A DNA stretch of 64,000 nt from an uncultured delta proteobacterium (GTDB taxonomy: Bacteria > Desulfobacterota > Binatia > UBA9968), in assembly GCA_963745035.1 (NCBI GenBank), contig CAVUVW010000026.1, forward strand, positions 96,001 through 160,000, in the 5' to 3' direction. Below are positions 28,928 through 39,523 of this stretch, piece by piece. Within the stretch, counting starts at the first letter, position 1. Every line of letters begins with the position of its first letter. Under the pieces are notes generated by a model. That model was not told where the DNA came from and made no database searches. It saw nothing but the letters and a program-made list of their open reading frames with translations. The translations under genes and the position numbers were made by a program.

Positions 28928-31222
28928 ATGAACGAGAAGCACAGTTATTCGATTGCGGGAACCAATGCGCCCAGGGTCGACGGCGTCGAAAAAGTAACCG
29001 GCAAAGCGATCTATACGGGCGATATCCAGCTTCCGGGGATGGCGCATGCGCGTATACTGCGCAGCCCCGTCGCTCACGCGAAAATCGTTAAAGTCGACGC
29101 GACAAAGGCGAAGGAGCTTCCGGGCGTTATCGCGACCCTGACGCGCGATGATATCCAAGTGTTCAATTACAAGTACGGCGCGACATATAAAGATCAGTCG
29201 ATCGTTGCAGTCGATAAGGTCCGCTACGTCGGCGATCCGGTGGCCGCGGTACTGGCCGATGATCCGCCACGGCGGAACAGGCTCTGGAGTTGATCGAAGT
29301 CGAGTACGAAGAACTGGCCGAAAGTAACCAACATCGAAGAGGCTACCGCGCCGGGAGCCGTTCTCGTTCACGAAGCGGGCGTGGCGCGCGCCGAGCTGCG
29401 CGGCTCGGTTTACGGCGCGCCGGAGCGATTCAACGGTACCAACATTTGCTATTACCTCACCTTCGGGCGCGAGGATGTGGAAAAAGGCTTTGCCAAGGCC
29501 GATCAGATTTTTGAAGACACGTTCCGCTTTCAAAAAGTTCAGCACTATTCGCTCGAAGCGCACAACAATATCGCCTACTACGACGGCGAGAAGCTCACAG
29601 TCTGGGCGTCCTGCCAGGACCCGTTCACTCTGCGCGATCATCTCTCCGGCATATTTCGTCTGCCGCTCAGCCGCATAAGAGTTATCGTCCCGTACGTCGG
29701 CGGCGGCTACGGCGGCAAGCTCTACGTCAAAGCGGAGCCAATTTCGGCGGCGCTGTCGTGGATGACACGCAGGCCGGTAAAGCTTCAGCTATCGATCAAC
29801 GAAAGCTTCAAGACCGTCACGCGCCATCCGGCGCGCGTCACGGTGAAAACCGGGGTCACGAAGGACGGCAGGCTGATCGCGCGCGAGTGCCAGGTCTACA
29901 TGGACACCGGCGCTTACGCGGACGCCGGTCCGCGCGTGACGCAGAAAGCGGCTTATCGAGCTCTAGGCCCTTATAGGATTCCGTACGCTAAAGTCGAAGC
30001 TTACGGTGTTTACAGCAACACCGTCCCGGCGGGTGCTTTTCGCGGTTTCGGCGCGCTGCAAGTCACTTGGGCTTACGAATCACAGATGGACATGATCGCC
30101 GATCGGCTCGGCATCGATCCGCTGGAATTCCGCATCAAGAATCTACTCAAGAAGGGCGACATCTACACGAAGGGTGACACCCCCGTGGATTGCGATCTGG
30201 AAGAGGGACTGTTGAAAGTCGCCGACGCGATCAAGTGGAAGGAAAATTCCAGCAAGCCCAATCGCGCCAAAGGCATCAGCTGCTGCATCAAGGACGCCGG
30301 CGGAACTTACAAAGTTGCGGGGGCCACGGTCAAAATGTCATCCGATGGCAGCATCGTCTTGCTCACCGGCACGGTTGAAATCGGTCAGGGACCGCGCACG
30401 GCATTGAGCCAAGTCGTTTCGGAAGAACTCACAGTAGGCATGGAGCAAATCACCGTTGCCCAACTCGATACCGACGTGACGCCCTACGACATCTCCACCA
30501 GCGCCAGCAGTTCGATGGTGGTCATGGGGACTGCGGTGCTGCGAGCGGCGCAAGACGCGCGCAAGCAGTTGCTGCAGTGCGCCTCCAAGGTGCTGAAACA
30601 AAAAGTTGAAAACCTGAAACTTCACAACGGTCACGTCGTCTTTGGCGAGAGCGCGCCTATTTCCTTTAGCAAAGTGATCGTTGATTTCTTCGGCAGCAAG
30701 GCCGGAGAAATTATCGGTAAAGGACTTTACCAAGATAAAAAGAACCCCAAGGCCGTATTGGGGTCGACAACGACATTCTGGGAGGTGGGGTGGGGTGGTG
30801 TCGAGATCGAAGTCGATCCAGACACGGGTATGGTTCGGGTTCTGAATTACGTTTCTGCTTGCGATACCGGCAAGGCGATCAATCCGGAGCAGTGCATCGG
30901 CCAAGACGAAGGCGCCGTCTTATTCGGCATCGGCCACACTTTAATGGAAGAAATGGTTTACGAGGACGGCCAGCTTTTGAACGGCAATCTGGTCGACTAT
31001 CGCGTCCCAAGATTCGACGATGCGCCGGAACATCTCCACACGATTCTCATCGAGAACGGCAATGGTCCAGGTCCGTTCGGCTCCAAAGGCATCGGCGAGG
31101 GAGGCCTGTTGCCGGTCGCCTCCGCGGTCGCCAACGCGGTTGCGCGCGCGGTCGGCGTGCGCATTCAGGAATTGCCGCTCACCCCGCCGAAGATCTGGCA
31201 GGCGTTGCAACGAAAACAATAG
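28928..31222 (+). CDS. Xanthine dehydrogenase family Mo-binding large subunit (frameshifts ~29265, ~29320)
   Basis: KVTGKAIY, GGGYGGK, AFRGFG, EIGQG, GSKGIGE; paralog of 11537-13801. Confidence 0.87.
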
Positions 31223-31366
31223 CTCCGCTATCGCTTTTGATATCTTAAAGTTATTGTTTATATCGGATGCGCGGAGTTACGCCGATCTCGGCTCGGCTCG
31301 TCAGGGCTGTGAAAGCGGCATCGAAATTAGAATCGGGTCAAACTAGATCCTGCCTCATGCGAGAGA

Positions 31367-31870
31367 CTAAACCTCCAAAACCTGCCCGCATTTTTTGCAC
31401 GTCGCCAACGCCGCATTGCTCTTCAATGCGTTGGTTGCCTCATTGACGGCGCCGCCCGGATCGTCGAAGCGAACCCGGGCTTCGTACAGATTATTGCCGC
31501 AGTTTTCGCACGGCCAGATGAAGCGATCGATTTCCTGCGGGCTGCGGCGGCGCTCGACGACGAAAGTCCATGAGCCGTCCGCTCGGCGCGGCGAATGCGG
31601 AATGCTGGCCGGCAAAAGAAATAAATCGCCGGCGCCCAGCACGGCGACATCGTGTTTGTCGTCTTTCAGATAATGAAGATTCAGCTCGCCTTCGAGCTGG
31701 TAGAAAATCTCATCGCCGGGATTGATGTGATAGTCTTTGCGCTTGTTCGGCCCGCGCGTGACAAATGCGATGAAATCGGAGTCCTGCCAGATGACCCTTC
31801 GCTGGCCCCAATTGCCGCGATTCTCGTCGATCCATTTCTGGAGACTGAAGCCTTTCAGATGTGGCAGCAT
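31367..31870 (-). CDS. nbaC: 3-hydroxyanthranilate 3,4-dioxygenase family
   Basis: GPNKRKDYHINPGDEIFYQL, PHSP.R, rubredoxin-like CENC and CKKC. Confidence 0.85.
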   Translation of the reverse strand: MLPHLKGFSLQKWIDENRGNWGQRRVIWQDSDFIAFVTRGPNKRKDYHINPGDEIFYQLEGELNLHYLKDDKHDVAVLGAGDLFLLPASIPHSPRRADGSWTFVVERRRSPQEIDRFIWPCENCGNNLYEARVRFDDPGGAVNEATNALKSNAALATCKKCGQVLEV

Positions 31871-31936
31871 AAGACCTCCATCGGATGGAAACACTATAGA
31901 ATTGCCTCCGGCGGGGAATCAAGGCTAAAACTAGCC

Positions 31937-32428
31937 ATGGTGTCGGCACGCAAACGAATGAAGTTGAAATCCGGCCGCATCGGCTTGATTTCCGACACGC
32001 ACGGCTTGGTTAGGCCCGAGGCGCTCGCCGCGTTGAAAGGGAGCGAGCTTATTATTCACGCCGGTGATATCGGCAATCCGGAAGTGCTCACTGCGCTCAA
32101 AGAAATTGCGCCGGTCATCGCGATTCGCGGCAACAACGATCGCGACTTTTGGGCAAAAGAGATTCCGGATTTTTTGGAGTTGAAGATCAACGGGATCAAG
32201 ATCTATGTGATCCACAATGTCAATGAATGGAAGCCGGACTCCAGGGGCGCTTTTCACGCTGTGATCAGCGGCCATTCGCATAAACCGAATGTGATCACCA
32301 AAGACGGCGTCCTTTTTATCAATCCGGGTAGCGCCGGTCCGAGACGCTTCAAACTGCCGATTGCGGTGGGCCGGCTTCGAATCGATGGTGGCAAAATCCG
32401 CGCAAATATATTCAATCTGGAAGTTTAA
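31937..32428 (+). CDS. YfcE-like metallophosphoesterase
   Basis: ISDTH, HAGD, RGNND, SGHSH, NPGS. Confidence 0.9.
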   Translation: MVSARKRMKLKSGRIGLISDTHGLVRPEALAALKGSELIIHAGDIGNPEVLTALKEIAPVIAIRGNNDRDFWAKEIPDFLELKINGIKIYVIHNVNEWKPDSRGAFHAVISGHSHKPNVITKDGVLFINPGSAGPRRFKLPIAVGRLRIDGGKIRANIFNLEV

Positions 32429-32469: not shown

Positions 32470-32478
32470 AATAGCAGT

Positions 32479-32513
32479 AACCTTTTAATCCGATCCTGTG
32501 AGGTCGGAAAAGG
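32479..32513 (+). ncRNA. PyrR-binding site (anti-antiterminator)
   Basis: CCTTTTAA-TCCGA-TCCTGTGAGG-TCGGA-AAAGG matches the PyrR element consensus (CUUUAA / UCCNGNGAGG). Confidence 0.88.
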
Positions 32514-32548
32514 AGTTATGAAGCTGATTTCGGAAATTATTAGCGCTC

Positions 32549-32586
32549 AAAGACCCTCTCGGTGATTCCGGAGGGTCTTTTTTTAT
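32549..32586 (+). terminator. Attenuator terminator of the pyr leader
   Basis: AAAGACCCTC..GAGGGTCTTT followed by a T tract just before the pyrR ATG. Confidence 0.85.
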
Positions 32587-32588
32587 CT

Positions 32589-33146
32589 ATGGCTGACAAG
32601 CAGCAAGTCGTCCTGGAACAGGCGGATCTTGGCAAGGCTATCCGGCGGATGGCGCACGAGATCTTGGAAAAGTGCGCCGACCCGACGGAGCTGGTCTTGA
32701 TCGGCATCCGTTCGCGCGGTGCCTATCTTGCTCGCCGGCTGGCGCGAACGATTGAGGAAATCGGGAAGTCTAGTCCTCTGGTCACGGCGATCGACGTGTC
32801 GGCGTTTCGCGACGATCGGGCCGTAACGCAGGAAAATTTATCTGGCGGCGTCTTCGAAACTGAACCCGTAGTCGAGGACAAGACCATCGTCCTGATCGAT
32901 GACGTGATTTATCGCGGTCGCACGATTCGAGCCGCGATGGAGGCGGTCGAGCGTCTCGGCCAACCGAAACGAATTCTCGTGGCGGCCTTGATCGATCGCG
33001 GTTCACGCGAGTTGCCAATACGCGCCGATATCGTCGGAAAAAATATCGACGTCGCGGAAGGTCAACGGGTCAACGTTCGGCTGGTGGAGGCCGATGGGAT
33101 CGATCAGGTGTTTTTGGTCGATTGGCGTGATCGTCGCGCTGTTTAG
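32589..33146 (+). CDS. pyrR: Pyrimidine attenuation protein PyrR / UPRTase
   Basis: RRMAHEILEK, GIRSRG, FRDD, VLIDDVIYRGRT, DRGSRELPIRAD.VGK. Confidence 0.92.
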   Translation: MADKQQVVLEQADLGKAIRRMAHEILEKCADPTELVLIGIRSRGAYLARRLARTIEEIGKSSPLVTAIDVSAFRDDRAVTQENLSGGVFETEPVVEDKTIVLIDDVIYRGRTIRAAMEAVERLGQPKRILVAALIDRGSRELPIRADIVGKNIDVAEGQRVNVRLVEADGIDQVFLVDWRDRRAV

Positions 33147-33162: not shown

Positions 33163-35109
33163 ATGCGTAATCTGATTTCCATCGGCGATTTGACCAACGA
33201 AGAGATCGAGGAAATCTTTTCTCTGGCCGATGGCGCCGACGAATTGCGCGCGGAGAGACGCGCGAGCGGCGAGATCATGGCGACGCTGTTTTATGAGCCG
33301 AGCACGCGGACGCGATTATCATTCGAATCGGCGATGCAACGGCTTGGGGGCTCGGTGATCAGTTGCTCGGACATGAAGTCATCATCGACGGTCAAAGGCG
33401 AAACTGTCGCGGATACCGCGCGGGTCGTTTCGAGCTACGCGGATGTCTTGGTCGTACGCCACAACTGGGATGGGGCCGTGCAAGCGATGGCGGAGCACGC
33501 CGACGTGCCTGTGATCAACGCCGGCGACGGCAGCCACGAGCATCCGACGCAAACGCTTTGCGATCTCTACACCTTGCGCAAGGAGAAGGGCGAAATCAAA
33601 GGATTGACCGTCGTGGTGTGCGGCGATTTGAAGAACGGCCGCACGATTCACTCCCTGGTTTACGCGCTGGCGCGGTTCGGCGCCAACGTGGTGACGTTGG
33701 CCGCCAACGGCATGGCCTTGCCGCAGTATGTGATCGACCGCTTGGAGCGCGAATACGATTATGCCCTCGCTCCGGTGGGATCGGATGATCTAAACGCCGT
33801 CGTCACTGAAACTGATGCCTTATATCTCACGCCGAAGCAGCCGCATCAGCTGGCGCTTTACACGCAAGTCGACCAGGTCATTCAAGCGCGCCTCAACACC
33901 ATGGCCACCGGGCTGCGTTACGACGCCTTCTATATGACGCGAAAACAAAAGGAGCGCATGAAGGAAGGCACCACGGACGTGAGCTATCCGACCATCGGCG
34001 CCAATTTTCTGCGCGAGCAGCGTTTTCAAGATACCGTGGTGATGCATCCGCTGCCGCGTGTCGATGAGCTTTCACCGGAGGTCGATAAGGACCGGCGCGG
34101 CATTTACTTCAAGCAAGCCGCCTACGGCGTACCGGTGCGCATGGCGTTACTCAAGTTCCTCCTCGACCGGCGCGCCGAAAAGCACAACGCGTCAAAGGAC
34201 GCTACCGTCTTATATCAAAGTCCCGAGCCGATCGCGCCGCAATGCCGTAATCCCAATTGCGTGACGGTGAGAGAGCCGATTTCGAGCAGTAGGCGCTTTG
34301 AGATTGTGTCGCCCGGAAAAGCCACAACGTTGATTTTGGCCTGCGCCTATTGCGACCATCGCTTCAAGGTACAAATTGTCGGCAATGTAAAATCCAAGAA
34401 ATATTACGCATTCGATAGCTCGCTCATGTCGACGTTTCGTGCCTGGCTCAAGAAGGACGAGCTTGCGCTCTTTGATTCGATCAAAGTAGCGGAAGACTTG
34501 GGTTACGAGCCGTTCAAAAGCGGCCCCCAGAGAGTGCTCATGAGCGAAAGCGATATTCATGCTGCGCTGGTGAATATGGCCGGTCAGATCCTGGGCGATT
34601 TCCAGGAACCGAGCCGTTTGCTGATTTTGGGCGTGCGCGGCGCAGGTTCCCAGCTCGCGCAGAGATTGGCTAACGAGATCGCACAACAAGCGAAGCTGAA
34701 GCCCGAAGTCGGCGAGATCGAAATTTATGGCTCGGGAGATGATCTGAGAAGACTTTCCGCAGACGACCCTGATGCCGGACCATTGAACCTGAGGAACCGC
34801 GAAGTCATTCTGGTCGACGACGTCATATTCAGCGGTAGGACGGTCAAGAGCGCATTGAGCATCATCTTTCGCTCGGCCCGGCCGCAATCGGTGCGGTTGG
34901 CGGTCTTGATCGACCGCGGGCATCGGGAAGTTCCGGTAAAACCGAATTACGTGGGTAAACATATTCCAAGCTCGGAATCGGACCGGGTGCGGGTCAAGCT
35001 TCGCGAGATCGAACCCGGAGGGCCCGATCAGGCAGTGATCTATACGATCATGAATCCAGGCGAGCAAGCGAGTAGGCCCGCGCGCAGCGTGGAAATGACA
35101 AGCAAGTAG
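33163..35109 (+). CDS. pyrB: Aspartate carbamoyltransferase fused to a PyrI-type Zn domain and a PyrR-like PRTase domain
   Basis: aa 1-334 [26 protein letters not shown]; aa 361-397 CRNPNC..CAYC; aa ~456-635 [21 protein letters not shown]; one open frame. Confidence 0.9.
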
Positions 35110-35113
35110 CGAG

Positions 35114-36280
35114 ATGAAAGCGATCCTAGCACTGGCCGACGGGCGAGTTTTCGAAGGAGCGTCATTCGGCGCCGAAGGCGAGGCGATCGGCGAAGTGGTG
35201 TTCAACACCAGCATGACGGGATATCAGGAGATTCTCACCGATCCGTCCTACGAAGGGCAGCTCGTCGCGATGACTTATCCGGAGATCGGCAACGTCGGGG
35301 TCAATCCGGAAGACGTGGAATCGCGCAAACCGTTCGTCAACGGCTTCATCGTCAAGAATTACACGGCGCAGCCGAGCAATTGGCGCGCCGCCCAATCGTT
35401 GCACGAATACATGAAGGCGCACGGCATCGTCGGCATTCAAGGCATCGATACCCGCTCGCTGGTGCGCTACCTGCGCGATCAGGGTTCGCAAGAAGGCATT
35501 ATCTCGACGGTCACGGAGAACGTCGATGAGCTGATTGCTAAAGCCAAGAGATCCCCCGGCATGGTTGGCAAAGATCTGGTGCAAGAAGTCACCTGCGACG
35601 AGTCGTTCGATTGGAATCAAGGGATGTGGGACATCGGCACGGGCTACAAGACTCGGGATGGCGCGAAAGCCGCGCCGAAGCGCAAGGGCAGGGGAACCTT
35701 CGGCTCGCCTAATTTTTTCGTGGTCGCGTACGACTACGGCATCAAATACAACATTTTGCGCAATCTCGCCGAAGCCGGATGCCGGGTGAAGGTCGTGCCT
35801 GCGGCGACTTCAGCAGAAGATGTTTTGGCGCTCAATTCCGACGGGATTTTTCTCTCGAACGGTCCCGGCGATCCCGACGCCGTGCCCTATGCCAAAGAAA
35901 ACGTGCGCAAGCTCATCGGCAAGAAACCGATCTTCGGGATTTGTCTCGGCCATCAGATCATGGGGCTCGCGCTCGGCGGCAAAACCTACAAGCTCAAGTT
36001 CGGGCACCATGGCGGCAATCAGCCGGTGATGGATTTGACCACGCGCAAAGTCGAGATCACCTCGCAGAATCACGGGTTCGCGGTGGATGCCGATTCGCTC
36101 AAGGGCGCGGCTGAAGTGACCCATTTGAACCTGAACGACAATACCGTCGAAGGTTTGGCGCATCGTGAGCTGCCGATCTTCTCCGTGCAGTATCATCCGG
36201 AGTCCTCGCCCGGACCGCATGATGCGAGCTATCTTTTCAAGCGTTTCATCGACATGATGGCGAAACATCGAGGCAAGTAG
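35114..36280 (+). CDS. carA: Carbamoyl-phosphate synthase small subunit
   Basis: [33 protein letters not shown]. Confidence 0.97.
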
Positions 36281-36286
36281 CGACCC

Positions 36287-39523
<3,237 letters not shown>

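What the first reader, a model, noticed from the sequence alone, without database searches (positions are those of the whole stretch)
33163..35109. PyrB::PyrI-Zn-domain::PyrR triple fusion - an ATCase with a swapped allosteric sensor
Seen: one uninterrupted 648-aa frame holding a complete ATCase (aa 1-334), a CRNPNC-x27-CAYC domain (aa 361-397) and a full PyrR-like PRTase domain (aa ~456-635). Established: CPNxNC..CxYC is the PyrI zinc domain that docks on the catalytic chain; the PyrI N-terminal domain binds ATP/CTP/UTP and dimerises; PyrBI fusions are known (e.g. Thermotoga); PyrR binds UMP/UTP, guanine nucleotides and PRPP and is dimeric. No PyrI N-terminal domain is recognisable here. Inference: the PyrR domain has replaced it, giving UMP/GMP/PRPP allostery and possibly cross-linking catalytic trimers. 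I do not know of a described ATCase class with this architecture.
Basis: partly seen in the sequence, partly recalled or inferred. Interest (0 to 1): 0.9.

Follow-up and report, generated by a model that had tools for sequence, protein, structure and literature searches.

The report
ATCase fused to a PyrR-like sensor
Uncultured soil bacteria of the Binatia group make the textbook allosteric enzyme aspartate carbamoyltransferase as one chain, in which a domain borrowed from the RNA regulator PyrR appears to take over the nucleotide-sensing part.

Summary
Window 33163..35109 (+) is one open 648-aa frame. Its parts are a complete ATCase (aa 1-334), a PyrI-type four-cysteine zinc domain (about 355-410), a conserved 45-aa adaptor (411-455) and a PyrR-like PRTase domain (456-628).

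It is not an assembly artefact. The same architecture occurs in 37 other distinct ORFs fetched here. Its zinc+adaptor part was found in 174 of 401 sampled genomes of the same class. Contigs of other metagenome runs bridge both junctions without indels.

It is the genome's only ATCase, and no PyrI allosteric domain was found. It sits in an operon: PyrR-binding attenuator RNA, stand-alone pyrR, fusion, carA, carB.

The fused PyrR domain keeps the phosphoribosyl-binding loop in 41 of 41 sequences. It has lost the basic N-terminal-helix residues and two conserved arginines that all 15 stand-alone PyrRs keep. It is predicted to homodimerise.

Best reading (inferred, untested): a single-chain, class-B-like ATCase whose regulatory dimer is a PyrR-derived, RNA-blind nucleotide sensor.

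PyrR was probably appended to an existing sensor-less PyrB-Zn fusion, C-terminal to the zinc domain, rather than swapped in for the PyrI N-domain. My searches found no description in print.

The parts
32477..32586 (+). PyrR-binding attenuator RNA (Rfam RF00515): binding stem-loop, then a terminator hairpin with a U-run that ends 2 nt before the pyrR ATG
   Evidence: 56.3 bits, gathering score 54, full-length model match 1-115; alignment shown.
32589..33146 (+). Stand-alone pyrR (ORF lister starts it at GTG 32562; ATG 32589, just after the attenuator, is the more likely start)
   Evidence: NF003549 184.6 bits (cut-off 138). Keeps R19, H22 and K at position 27 (B. subtilis numbering).
33163..35109 (+). 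Fusion gene, 648 aa: ATCase, Zn domain, adaptor, PyrR-like domain
   Evidence: AF2 model pLDDT 88.1, pTM 0.80.
33163..34164 (+). ATCase catalytic domain, aa 1-334 (PyrI-partnered, archaeal/E. coli type)
   Evidence: (M. jannaschii 2rgw 249 bits, P. abyssi 1ml4 244 bits, B. subtilis 2at2 140 bits); Foldseek TM 0.85-0.88 normalised to the target. Motifs STRTR 47-51, R99-H100, HPTQ 127-130, R160, TRKQ 259-262 and HPLPR 295-299 are invariant in 18 of 18.
33814..33918 (+). Insert in the Asp-binding domain (about aa 218-252): a degenerate first copy '[12 protein letters not shown]' of the strand+motif, followed by the functional '[12 protein letters not shown]'
   Evidence: P. abyssi residues about 221-231 align to both query 218-226 and 252-266. 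Low AF2 confidence for aa 205-250. Shared with PyrB-Zn relatives.
34225..34392 (+). PyrI-type zinc domain (about aa 355-410), Cys 361, 366, 394, 397
   Evidence: PF02748 31.1 bits against 23.4. Four Cys invariant. Foldseek of the aa 340-455 model: the best 14 listed hits are ATCase regulatory chains.
34393..34527 (+). Conserved adaptor (aa 411-455): strand, helix 419-430, strand 434-437, helix 440-445; motif W428-L, then A435-x-F-x-S-x-K-x-A-E-x-L-G-Y-E-P
   Evidence: Invariant residues. pLDDT 89-93. Shared with the 460-490-aa PyrB-Zn proteins. No Pfam family reached its cut-off and Foldseek gave no match for it.
34528..35046 (+). PyrR-like type I PRTase domain (aa 456-628)
   Evidence: NF003549 150 bits, cut-off 138; B. 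subtilis PyrR 1a3c 112.6 bits; residue table; predicted homodimer.
35114..36280 (+). carA (carbamoyl-phosphate synthase small chain), 4 nt after the fusion's stop
   Evidence: CPSase_sm_chain 187.6 bits, GATase 195.8 bits.
36287..39523 (+). carB (carbamoyl-phosphate synthase large chain)

Best explanation
The gene encodes the organism's only aspartate carbamoyltransferase, built as a single-chain holoenzyme. The N-terminal 334 residues are an active catalytic chain of the PyrI-partnered type and should form the usual trimer. The PyrI-type zinc domain that follows is the docking module; in E. coli this domain holds the regulatory chain on the catalytic chain. A conserved 45-residue adaptor connects it to a PyrR-derived PRTase domain. 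That domain no longer binds RNA and probably no longer catalyses, but it still binds a phosphoribosyl ligand (most likely UMP/UTP against GMP/GTP, as PyrR does). It pairs with the same domain of a chain from a second trimer. The expected result is a hexamer of fused chains, shaped like the E. coli c6r6 enzyme, in which ligand binding at three PyrR-type dimers shifts catalytic activity. Transcription of the operon is controlled separately by the stand-alone PyrR acting on the upstream attenuator RNA. The same nucleotide signals would then act at the RNA level and the enzyme level through paralogous domains. Shown here: architecture, conservation, genomic context, residue losses and retentions, predicted folds and predicted dimer. 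Inferred: ligand identity, allostery and the hexamer.
For: Architecture and catalytic motifs. Only ATCase in the genome, with no PyrI N-domain. Real and under selection: whole-length conservation (mean column identity 82% in 16 sequences); 37 other distinct full ORFs; 174 of 401 class genomes with the Zn+adaptor part; triple architecture verified in families f1, f113, f6, f8 and f116. Zn domain: Pfam above cut-off, four invariant Cys, structural match to PyrI chains. The ATCase is of the type that partners with PyrI, unlike the Bacillus-type plain PyrB of sister families. PyrR-like domain, 41 fused against 15 stand-alone sequences: D105, D106, G111 and T113 of the PRPP loop, plus R141 and K152, are kept in 41 of 41. 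R19 is R in 2 of 41 against 15 of 15. H22 is H in 0 of 41 against 12 of 15. Position 27 is D or E in 38 of 41, against K or R in 14 of 15. R42 is R in 5 of 41 against 14 of 15. R73 is R in 3 of 41 against 15 of 15. Numbering comes from the alignment to 1a3c; the roles of these residues are recalled. The review passage read says the PyrR dimer binds RNA through a basic concave surface, that UMP/UTP promote RNA binding and that GMP/GTP antagonise it. Dimer: ipSAE 0.62, best of 3 controls 0.00. The mark was reached by 20 of 30 proteins solved as pairs of one chain and 1 of 23 solved as single chains. The runs agree in at least 100% of contacts and partner pLDDT is at least 85. The interface (550, 561-562, 565-566, 569, 575-579, 588-595) lies on residues that are largely invariant. 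Full-length AF2 pTM of 0.80 suggests a defined domain arrangement. A complete PyrR attenuator and a stand-alone PyrR upstream leave the RNA job covered. A stand-alone pyrR ORF is present in 28 of 37 other distinct fusion loci.
Against: No ligand binding, kinetics or oligomeric state was measured. PyrR dimers are solved structures, so the pass may reflect likeness, not binding by this copy. The sensor sits C-terminal to the zinc domain, opposite to PyrI. Relatives with PyrB-Zn, with or without the adaptor, lack any sensor, so the zinc domain may serve stability only and PyrR may have been added for another reason. Loss of R42 and R73 could also weaken nucleotide binding. The arginine of the PRPP loop (R112) is W, M or K in 8 of 41 fused domains (families f6, f8 and f116), so ligand or constraint differs between clades. 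The functional roles assigned to PyrR residues rest on my recall; the two primary papers were not held.
Confidence: 0.55

Rival explanations
1. Bifunctional enzyme: the C-terminal domain is an active uracil phosphoribosyltransferase, so one protein joins de novo synthesis (ATCase) and salvage (UPRTase), with no allosteric role.
For: PyrR proteins are named bifunctional regulator/UPRTase by NCBIfam and by the review passage read. The PRPP-loop residues D105, D106, G111 and T113 are kept in 41 of 41. No canonical upp was found in the genome (best 27.1 bits over only 58 of 206 profile positions; genome 92.6% complete).
Against: The arginines at positions 42 and 73 are lost in most fused domains (R in 5 of 41 and 3 of 41) but kept in stand-alone PyrRs (14 of 15 and 15 of 15). 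By recall of type I PRTases these lie in the PPi loop and the flexible catalytic loop. Two stand-alone PyrRs in the genome could supply UPRTase. A zinc docking domain plus adaptor is not needed merely to tether two enzymes.
Confidence: 0.15
2. Structural module only: the PyrR-like domain is a dimerisation or stabilisation scaffold that holds two trimers together and senses no ligand.
For: Predicted homodimer. Class A ATCases use an inactive dihydroorotase homologue as a necessary structural partner (abstract of PMC7053772 in the listing; passage of PMC6022934). Several ligand-contacting residues are lost.
Against: Strict retention of the phosphoribosyl-binding loop and of R138, H140, R141 and K152 in 40-41 of 41 fused domains is hard to explain without a ligand. 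H140 is more conserved in fused domains (40 of 41) than in the local stand-alone PyrRs (4 of 15).
Confidence: 0.15
3. RNA-binding autoregulator: the fused domain still binds pyr leader RNA, so the enzyme represses its own operon.
For: A PyrR-binding RNA lies upstream of the operon. R141 and K152 are retained.
Against: The N-terminal-helix positions are no longer basic: R19 is E, Q, D, S or another residue in 39 of 41; H22 is never H; position 27 is D or E in 38 of 41. An intact stand-alone PyrR sits next to the RNA.
Confidence: 0.05
4. Artefact: a mis-assembly, a read-through of two genes, or a decaying pseudogene.
For: The genome is a metagenome-type assembly (28 contigs, 5.8% contamination).
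Against: Same uninterrupted architecture in 37 other distinct ORFs from independent assemblies, and 466 database proteins at E <= 0.001. Contigs of three DNA runs from three studies bridge one or both junctions with no indels (X1 record 6 and X5 records 31 and 32 cover both; X2 record 21 covers the first). Every domain is conserved.
Confidence: 0.02

Closest known systems
Class B ATCase (E. coli / archaeal PyrB6-PyrI6)
   Same: Catalytic chain of the same subfamily (best PDB matches M. jannaschii, P. abyssi and E. coli). PyrI-type four-Cys zinc domain. A dimerising nucleotide-binding domain attached to the zinc domain (predicted).
   Different: One polypeptide. No PyrI allosteric domain. The sensor is a PRTase fold placed C-terminal, not N-terminal, to the zinc domain. 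There is an extra 45-aa adaptor and an extra insert in the catalytic chain.
Fused PyrBI of Thermotoga type (NCBIfam NF009916; example P0232 here)
   Same: Catalytic and regulatory parts in one chain; the review passage speaks of regulatory subunits 'fused or unfused'.
   Different: NF009916 scores only 89.9 bits against a cut-off of 800. The Thermotoga-type order is PyrB, PyrI_N, PyrI_C (P0232). Here it is PyrB, PyrI_C, adaptor, PyrR-like.
PyrR (B. subtilis / B. caldolyticus pyr attenuation protein and UPRTase)
   Same: Fold family and NCBIfam score above cut-off. PRPP loop retained. Predicted symmetric dimer.
   Different: Fused to an enzyme. Only 34% identical to the neighbouring stand-alone PyrR. 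Basic RNA-surface residues and two loop arginines lost.
Class A ATCase with active or pseudo-dihydroorotase (Pseudomonas, Aquifex)
   Same: A pyrimidine-pathway protein recruited as the non-catalytic partner that assembles two trimers (abstract of PMC7053772 in the listing).
   Different: The partner is a DHOase fold on a separate chain, with no zinc docking domain. The catalytic chain belongs to the other subfamily.
PyrB-Zn and PyrB-Zn-adaptor proteins without a sensor (about 400-490 aa; metagenomic, one labelled Dehalococcoidia)
   Same: Same ATCase clade with the same insert, same zinc domain, same adaptor motif.
   Different: They lack the PyrR-like domain. My literature searches were not aimed at them, so I cannot say whether they are described.

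Membership tests
ATCase catalytic chain (PyrB, TIGR00670) | Profile score above the curated cut-off; both OTCace domains | tested here: met
   294.6 bits against 236.95. OTCace_N and OTCace.
ATCase catalytic chain (PyrB, TIGR00670) | Carbamoyl-phosphate and aspartate binding motifs (STRTR, R-H, HPTQ, R, TRxQ, HPLPR; list recalled from E. coli work) | tested here: met
   Invariant in 18 of 18 aligned relatives.
ATCase catalytic chain (PyrB, TIGR00670) | Catalytic activity and trimer formation | not testable with these tools
   Needs enzyme assay and SEC or cryo-EM.
Class B ATCase (PyrB + PyrI) | PyrI zinc domain with four Cys ligands | tested here: met
   PF02748 31.1 bits against 23.4. Cys invariant. 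Foldseek top hits are PyrI chains, prob 0.89-0.99, although E is only 0.14-0.6.
Class B ATCase (PyrB + PyrI) | PyrI allosteric (ATP/CTP-binding) N-domain, PF01948 | tested here: not met
   Absent from the protein and the genome (control genomes ring in 7 of 14).
Class B ATCase (PyrB + PyrI) | Two trimers bridged by three regulatory dimers | not testable with these tools
   Only the isolated PyrR-like domain dimer could be modelled; a hexamer exceeds the size limit.
Fused PyrBI (NF009916) | Profile score above cut-off | tested here: not met
   89.9 bits against 800.
PyrR (NF003549) | Profile score above cut-off; PRPP-binding loop | tested here: met
   150 bits against 138. D105, D106, G111 and T113 kept in 41 of 41.
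PyrR (NF003549) | Basic concave RNA-binding surface (review passage; residue list recalled) | tested here: not met
   R19, H22 and R27 are replaced, mostly by acidic or neutral residues, in fused domains but kept in stand-alone PyrRs.
PyrR (NF003549) | UPRTase activity; UMP/GMP binding | not testable with these tools
   Needs assay. Loss of R42 and R73 argues against catalysis (inference).
Class A ATCase (with DHOase or pseudo-DHOase) | Catalytic chain of the Bacillus/Pseudomonas/Aquifex subfamily partnered with a DHOase-fold chain | tested here: not met
   The catalytic part is nearest to archaeal and E. coli chains; Aquifex 3d6n scores 113.5 bits against 249 for M. jannaschii. Partnering with DHOase was not tested.

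The most novel reading that the evidence does not exclude
This is a fourth organisational type of bacterial ATCase. The PyrI zinc domain works as a general docking adaptor. A PyrR paralogue, stripped of RNA binding and catalysis, has become the dimeric allosteric sensor. One ligand code (UMP/UTP off, GMP/GTP on) then governs both transcription attenuation, through stand-alone PyrR, and enzyme activity, through the fused PyrR domain. More broadly, the PyrB-Zn scaffold may be a plug-in platform that has accepted different C-terminal modules in different lineages (PyrR here; an unknown 185-aa module in P0234).
Probability: 0.4. Interest if true: 0.8.

Novelty: new variant of a known kind. Interest (0 to 1): 0.7.

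Why it matters
ATCase is the textbook model of allosteric regulation. All described bacterial forms fall into three classes: with DHOase, with PyrI, or trimer alone (review passage). Here the catalytic chain and the zinc docking domain are kept while the sensor is exchanged for an unrelated fold taken from the pathway's own RNA regulator. That makes it a clean test case for how allostery evolves by domain recruitment, and for whether the zinc domain alone can transmit a signal from a foreign sensor. It also shows a regulator (PyrR) splitting its two jobs between paralogues. The form is common: it is the only ATCase type found in several families of an abundant, uncultured soil class. Public sources label it simply 'aspartate carbamoyltransferase catalytic subunit', so the feature is invisible in current annotation.

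Tried and rejected
Whole-model Foldseek recovered only ATCase catalytic chains and says nothing about domain packing. Model coordinates and PAE are not returned, so docking of the zinc domain on the catalytic domain could not be checked.

The ESM Atlas search with aa 340-648 gave no usable hit.

BLASTP of the two halves of the ATCase insert region against each other found nothing. The duplication is supported only by both halves aligning to the same P. abyssi segment.

P0128 (583 aa) was considered as a further architecture. It matches only through the adaptor and the first PyrR helix and then diverges into Arg/Ala/Ser-rich sequence, so it is probably a frameshifted gene call. P0234's C-terminal 185 aa has no similarity to the window's C-terminal part and no Pfam family; I did not follow it further.

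The idea that the fused domain is a recent tandem copy of the upstream pyrR is rejected: 34% identity, lower than its similarity to Bacillus-type PyrRs.

The idea that read-through of the upstream pyrR made the fusion is rejected: the stand-alone gene is upstream, whereas the fused domain is C-terminal.

In read laying some bins of X2 and X15 had no cover; this proves nothing. The depth spike at 33467-33563 is the conserved HPTQ region of many organisms. X15 is an RNA library whose contigs lie on 34191-34341, 34402-34552 and 34523-34723. This is not proof of transcription, because DNA can be present in such libraries.

Literature: six searches gave no paper on an ATCase-PyrR fusion. From the listings I read only passages of PMC7430163 and PMC6022934; of PMC7053772 I saw only the start of the abstract in the listing. 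Subscription journals and supplements are not covered, so 'not in print' means not found in these searches.

Eight genomes are flagged unpublished (G728, G778, G759, G731, G738, G474, G600, G595). They are among the 174 positives. L038 (from G728) is one of the 37 distinct ORFs. No claim depends on them alone.
Full report
OBSERVATION. Window 33163..35109 (+) is a single open frame of 648 aa.
- Pfam places OTCace_N at aa 2-139 (170.1 bits), OTCace (72.9 bits, in two stretches), PyrI_C at 360-404 (31.1 bits, cut-off 23.4) and Pribosyltran at 468-601 (63.1 bits).
- NCBIfam gives ATCase TIGR00670 at 294.6 bits (cut-off 236.95) and PyrR NF003549 at 150 bits (cut-off 138) for aa 456-617. The Thermotoga-type fused PyrBI model NF009916 reaches only 89.9 of 800 bits.
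- No PyrI allosteric domain (PF01948) is found in the protein or anywhere in the 7.43-Mb, 92.6%-complete genome.
- The fusion holds the genome's only PyrI_C match and its only ATCase above cut-off.

NOT AN ARTEFACT.
- A search with aa 335-648 found 466 proteins at E <= 0.001 among 5961 candidates. The 120 listed are mostly 641-665 aa, carry the same Pfam domains, and go down to 61% identity.
- Sixteen of them align over their whole length with 82% mean column identity.
- In loci fetched from other genomes I found 37 further distinct ORFs that hold ATCase, Zn+adaptor and PyrR-like parts in one frame. One of these, L038, comes from a genome flagged unpublished.
- Near-identical DNA is held by at least 14 runs from 6 studies of soil, rhizosphere and winery metagenomes.
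- When four runs were laid on the stretch, contigs bridged the ATCase-Zn junction (X1 record 6, X2 record 21, X5 record 31) and the adaptor-PyrR junction (X1 record 6, X5 record 32). No insertions or deletions were listed.

CONTEXT.
- Directly upstream lie a full-length Rfam PyrR-binding site (RF00515, 32477..32586, 56.3 bits, gathering score 54) and a stand-alone pyrR (NF003549 184.6 bits). The RNA has the binding stem-loop and a terminator hairpin with a U-run. The most likely pyrR start is ATG 32589.
- The fusion starts 16 nt after pyrR ends. carA follows 4 nt after the fusion's stop, then carB.
- The operon is therefore: attenuator, pyrR, fusion, carA, carB.
- A stand-alone pyrR ORF lies in 28 of the 37 other distinct fusion loci. 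In the other 9 the held flank was only about 470 nt or the contig ended, so absence is not shown.
- In families f6, f8 and f116 the gene after the fusion is a dihydroorotase instead of carA.

WHO HAS IT.
- Ten named loci carry depositors' labels: Candidatus Binatia in 5 of 10, and 'delta proteobacterium', Deltaproteobacteria, Chloroflexota and Syntrophobacter MAGs for the rest.
- With aa 335-466 (Zn+adaptor) as query, 9 of 401 sampled genomes of the phylum matched.
- In the class, 174 of 401 sampled genomes matched. By family, without the window's own genome: f1 55/63, f113 4/4, f6 93/94, f116 19/19, f8 1/1, f112 1/27 (weak). There were no matches in the other 14 families sampled, for example f4 0/55, f5 0/25 and f118 0/26.
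- Eight of the positives are flagged unpublished.
- By my count, 12 of the 150 listed matches have open frames under 600 aa (313-561). The rest are 619-901 aa.
- The full triple architecture was checked directly in f1, f113 (L048), f6 (L018, L019, L022), f8 (L021) and f116 (L065-L067).
- The one clear match outside the class (L023) is an ATCase+Zn frame of 480 aa with no PyrR part.

ORIGIN.
- The catalytic part is nearest to PyrI-partnered ATCases: M. jannaschii 249 bits, P. abyssi 244, E. coli about 212, B. subtilis 140.
- Class members without the fusion have a plain PyrB at the same place downstream of pyrR. It is only 32-34% identical to the fusion's ATCase part and is nearest to B. subtilis ATCase (214 bits). 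Two non-orthologous ATCases therefore occupy the same operon slot in sister families.
- A search of 1.84 billion cluster representatives found few full-length representatives of the triple fusion: P0121 (60% identity), P0123 (47%) and P0124 (45%). It found many proteins of about 460-490 aa that match query 2-450, and proteins of about 400-425 aa that match 2-401.
- Pfam shows these shorter proteins are PyrB+PyrI_C without any further domain. The longer ones share the adaptor motif.
- A quick tree of 59 ATCase domains was built, with four eukaryotic multi-domain rows and most plain ATCases left out. All insert-bearing and Zn-fused forms fall in one group (SH-aLRT 90-94) inside the PyrI-type ATCases, apart from the Bacillus-type rows (100). 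The 12 class triple fusions cluster together (82). P0123 and P0124 are unresolved, so a single origin of the triple fusion is not ruled out and not shown.
- The simplest order of events is PyrB with insert, then +Zn, then +adaptor, then +PyrR-like domain.

ANATOMY.
- ATCase. The motifs I recall as the carbamoyl-phosphate and aspartate sites of the E. coli enzyme are invariant in 18 of 18 relatives. They are STRTR 47-51, S75/K78, R99-H100, HPTQ 127-130, R160, T259-R260-x-Q262 and HPLPR 295-299.
- ATCase insert. An insert of about 26-35 aa precedes the TRKQKER motif. P. abyssi residues about 221-231 align both to query 218-226 (DALYLTPKQ) and to 252-266 ([12 protein letters not shown]). This points to a partial tandem duplication in which only the second copy keeps the catalytic Arg and Gln. 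AF2 confidence is low there (aa 205-250).
- Zinc domain. The four Cys and N363 are invariant; the four Cys are also invariant in 42 of 42 sequences. A separate AF2 model of aa 340-455 (pLDDT 79.8) finds ATCase regulatory chains as its best 14 listed Foldseek hits: 42-55 aligned columns, rmsd 1.5-3.2 A, probability 0.89-0.99. The E-values are weak (0.14-0.6; none at 0.001 or below), as expected for about 45 residues.
- Adaptor, aa 411-455. It is predicted as strand-helix-strand-helix with pLDDT about 89-93. W428, L429, A435, F437, K441, A443, E444, L446, Y448, E449 and P450 are invariant in 16 of 16. No Pfam family reached its cut-off and Foldseek gave no match for it. In the relative P0126 a weak Ada_Zn_binding hit (E 0.0034, below cut-off) overlaps it.
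- PyrR-like domain. It is 34% identical to the neighbouring PyrR and scores 112.6 bits to B. subtilis PyrR 1a3c. I used that alignment for numbering and compared 41 fused with 15 stand-alone sequences.
  - Kept in 41 of 41: D105, D106, G111, T113, R141, K152. Kept in 40 of 41: R138, H140.
  - R19: R in 2/41 fused against 15/15 stand-alone.
  - H22: H in 0/41 against 12/15.
  - Position 27: D or E in 38/41, against K or R in 14/15.
  - R42: R in 5/41 against 14/15.
  - R73: R in 3/41 against 15/15.
  - R112 of the loop is W, M or K in 8/41 fused domains.
  - Residue roles are my recall of the B. subtilis mutagenesis and of type I PRTases: T18, R19, H22 and R27 for RNA binding; R42 and R73 in the PPi and flexible loops. 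The primary papers were not held. A review passage confirms only that a PyrR dimer binds RNA through a basic concave surface, that UMP/UTP favour RNA binding and that GMP/GTP oppose it.

STRUCTURE PREDICTIONS.
- Full-length AF2 with a 104-row alignment gave mean pLDDT 88.1 and pTM 0.80.
- Two copies of aa 456-640 gave ipSAE 0.62 (runs 0.62, 0.62, 0.59) against 0.00 for the best of 3 controls. The mark was reached by 20 of 30 proteins solved as pairs of one chain and 1 of 23 solved as single chains.
- The runs agree in at least 100% of contacts, and partner pLDDT is at least 85.
- The interface is 550, 561-562, 565-566, 569, 575-579 and 588-595 on both copies.
- PyrR dimers are solved, so this pass shows that the dimer surface looks intact, not that this copy binds.

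MECHANISM.
- Most likely (0.55): catalytic trimers carry, in cis, a zinc docking domain, an adaptor and a PyrR-derived sensor. Sensors from two trimers pair and give a hexamer shaped like the E. coli holoenzyme. A phosphoribosyl ligand at the sensor shifts activity. The stand-alone PyrR keeps the RNA job.
- Rivals: active UPRTase (0.15). The genome lacks a clear upp but has two stand-alone PyrRs, and the fused domain has lost loop arginines.
- Scaffold without a ligand (0.15). This is contradicted by the strictly kept ligand loop.
- RNA-binding autoregulator (0.05). This is contradicted by the acidic replacements.
- Artefact (0.02).

COMPARISON AND NOVELTY.
- The present protein works most like class B. 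It fails one defining feature, the PyrI allosteric domain, and it is not a member of the fused-PyrBI family.
- Six literature searches found no description.
- Source labels call it 'aspartate carbamoyltransferase catalytic subunit' or, for fragments, 'pyrimidine operon attenuation protein/uracil phosphoribosyltransferase'.
- I rate it a new variant of a known kind.

LIMITS.
- Nothing here measures binding, kinetics or assembly.
- Residue roles are recalled.
- The tree is a quick one.
- Taxon names are depositors' labels.
- Supplements of papers were not consulted.

Noticed in passing
Sister-family loci L053-L056 (genomes G143, G110, G038, G076): Class members without the fusion carry a plain Bacillus-type PyrB in the same slot downstream of pyrR. 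It is 32-34% identical to the fusion's ATCase and nearest to B. subtilis 3r7d. This looks like in-place displacement of one ATCase subfamily by another within one class.
   Followed up: partly
Proteins P0126, P0130, P0131, P0133, P0134, P0136-P0138, P0140, P0148 (about 460-490 aa); P0139, P0147, P0154, P0158 (about 400-425 aa); locus L023: A broad metagenomic family of ATCases fused to a PyrI zinc domain with no allosteric domain, with or without the 45-aa adaptor. One relative is labelled Dehalococcoidia. What the zinc domain does there is open.
   Followed up: partly
P0234 (544 aa), P0204 (464 aa), P0232 (459 aa): Other ATCase fusions among the representatives. P0234 is PyrB, Zn domain, then an unknown 185-aa C-terminal module. 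P0204 is PyrB fused to a cytidine/dCMP deaminase domain. P0232 is a canonical PyrB, PyrI_N, PyrI_C fusion.
   Followed up: no
window 33814..33918 (aa about 218-252 of the fusion): Partial internal duplication in the aspartate-binding domain. A degenerate copy ([12 protein letters not shown]) is conserved across the family and precedes the functional [12 protein letters not shown]. It lies where the 240s-loop region of E. coli ATCase would be (my recall). AF2 confidence is low there.
   Followed up: partly
G000 contig C27:21192-21716 (-), locus L061: A second stand-alone PyrR in the same genome (NF003549 187.9 bits). The genome has 5.8% estimated contamination, so it may be a paralogue or foreign.
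   Followed up: no
G000, whole genome: No canonical upp (UPRTase, PF14681) found: the best hit is 27.1 bits over 58 of 206 profile positions. PyrR-type proteins may be the only UPRTases, or the gene lies in the missing 7%.
   Followed up: no
L019, L021, L065-L067 (families f6, f8, f116): In these clades the PRPP-loop motif reads GWT instead of GRT, and the fusion is followed by dihydroorotase (pyrC) rather than carAB.
   Followed up: partly
G418 (family f112), locus L057: A complete one-contig genome of the same order gave no ATCase hit above the TIGR00670 cut-off. The best hit was 145.7 bits in a 714-aa open frame.
   Followed up: no
P0099 (449 aa): A database protein with precomputed Pfam MoCoBD_1 (PF02738) plus PRTase that matches 93% of the query's C-terminal part at 64% identity. 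It is probably a gene-call artefact; a MoCo-binding dehydrogenase gene lies about 2 kb upstream of the pyr operon in the window (29381..31222).
   Followed up: no
window 29381..32428: Genes upstream of the operon: a molybdopterin-binding dehydrogenase subunit (29381..31222, +), 3-hydroxyanthranilate 3,4-dioxygenase (31367..31894, -) and a calcineurin-like metallophosphoesterase (about 31955..32428, +).
   Followed up: no
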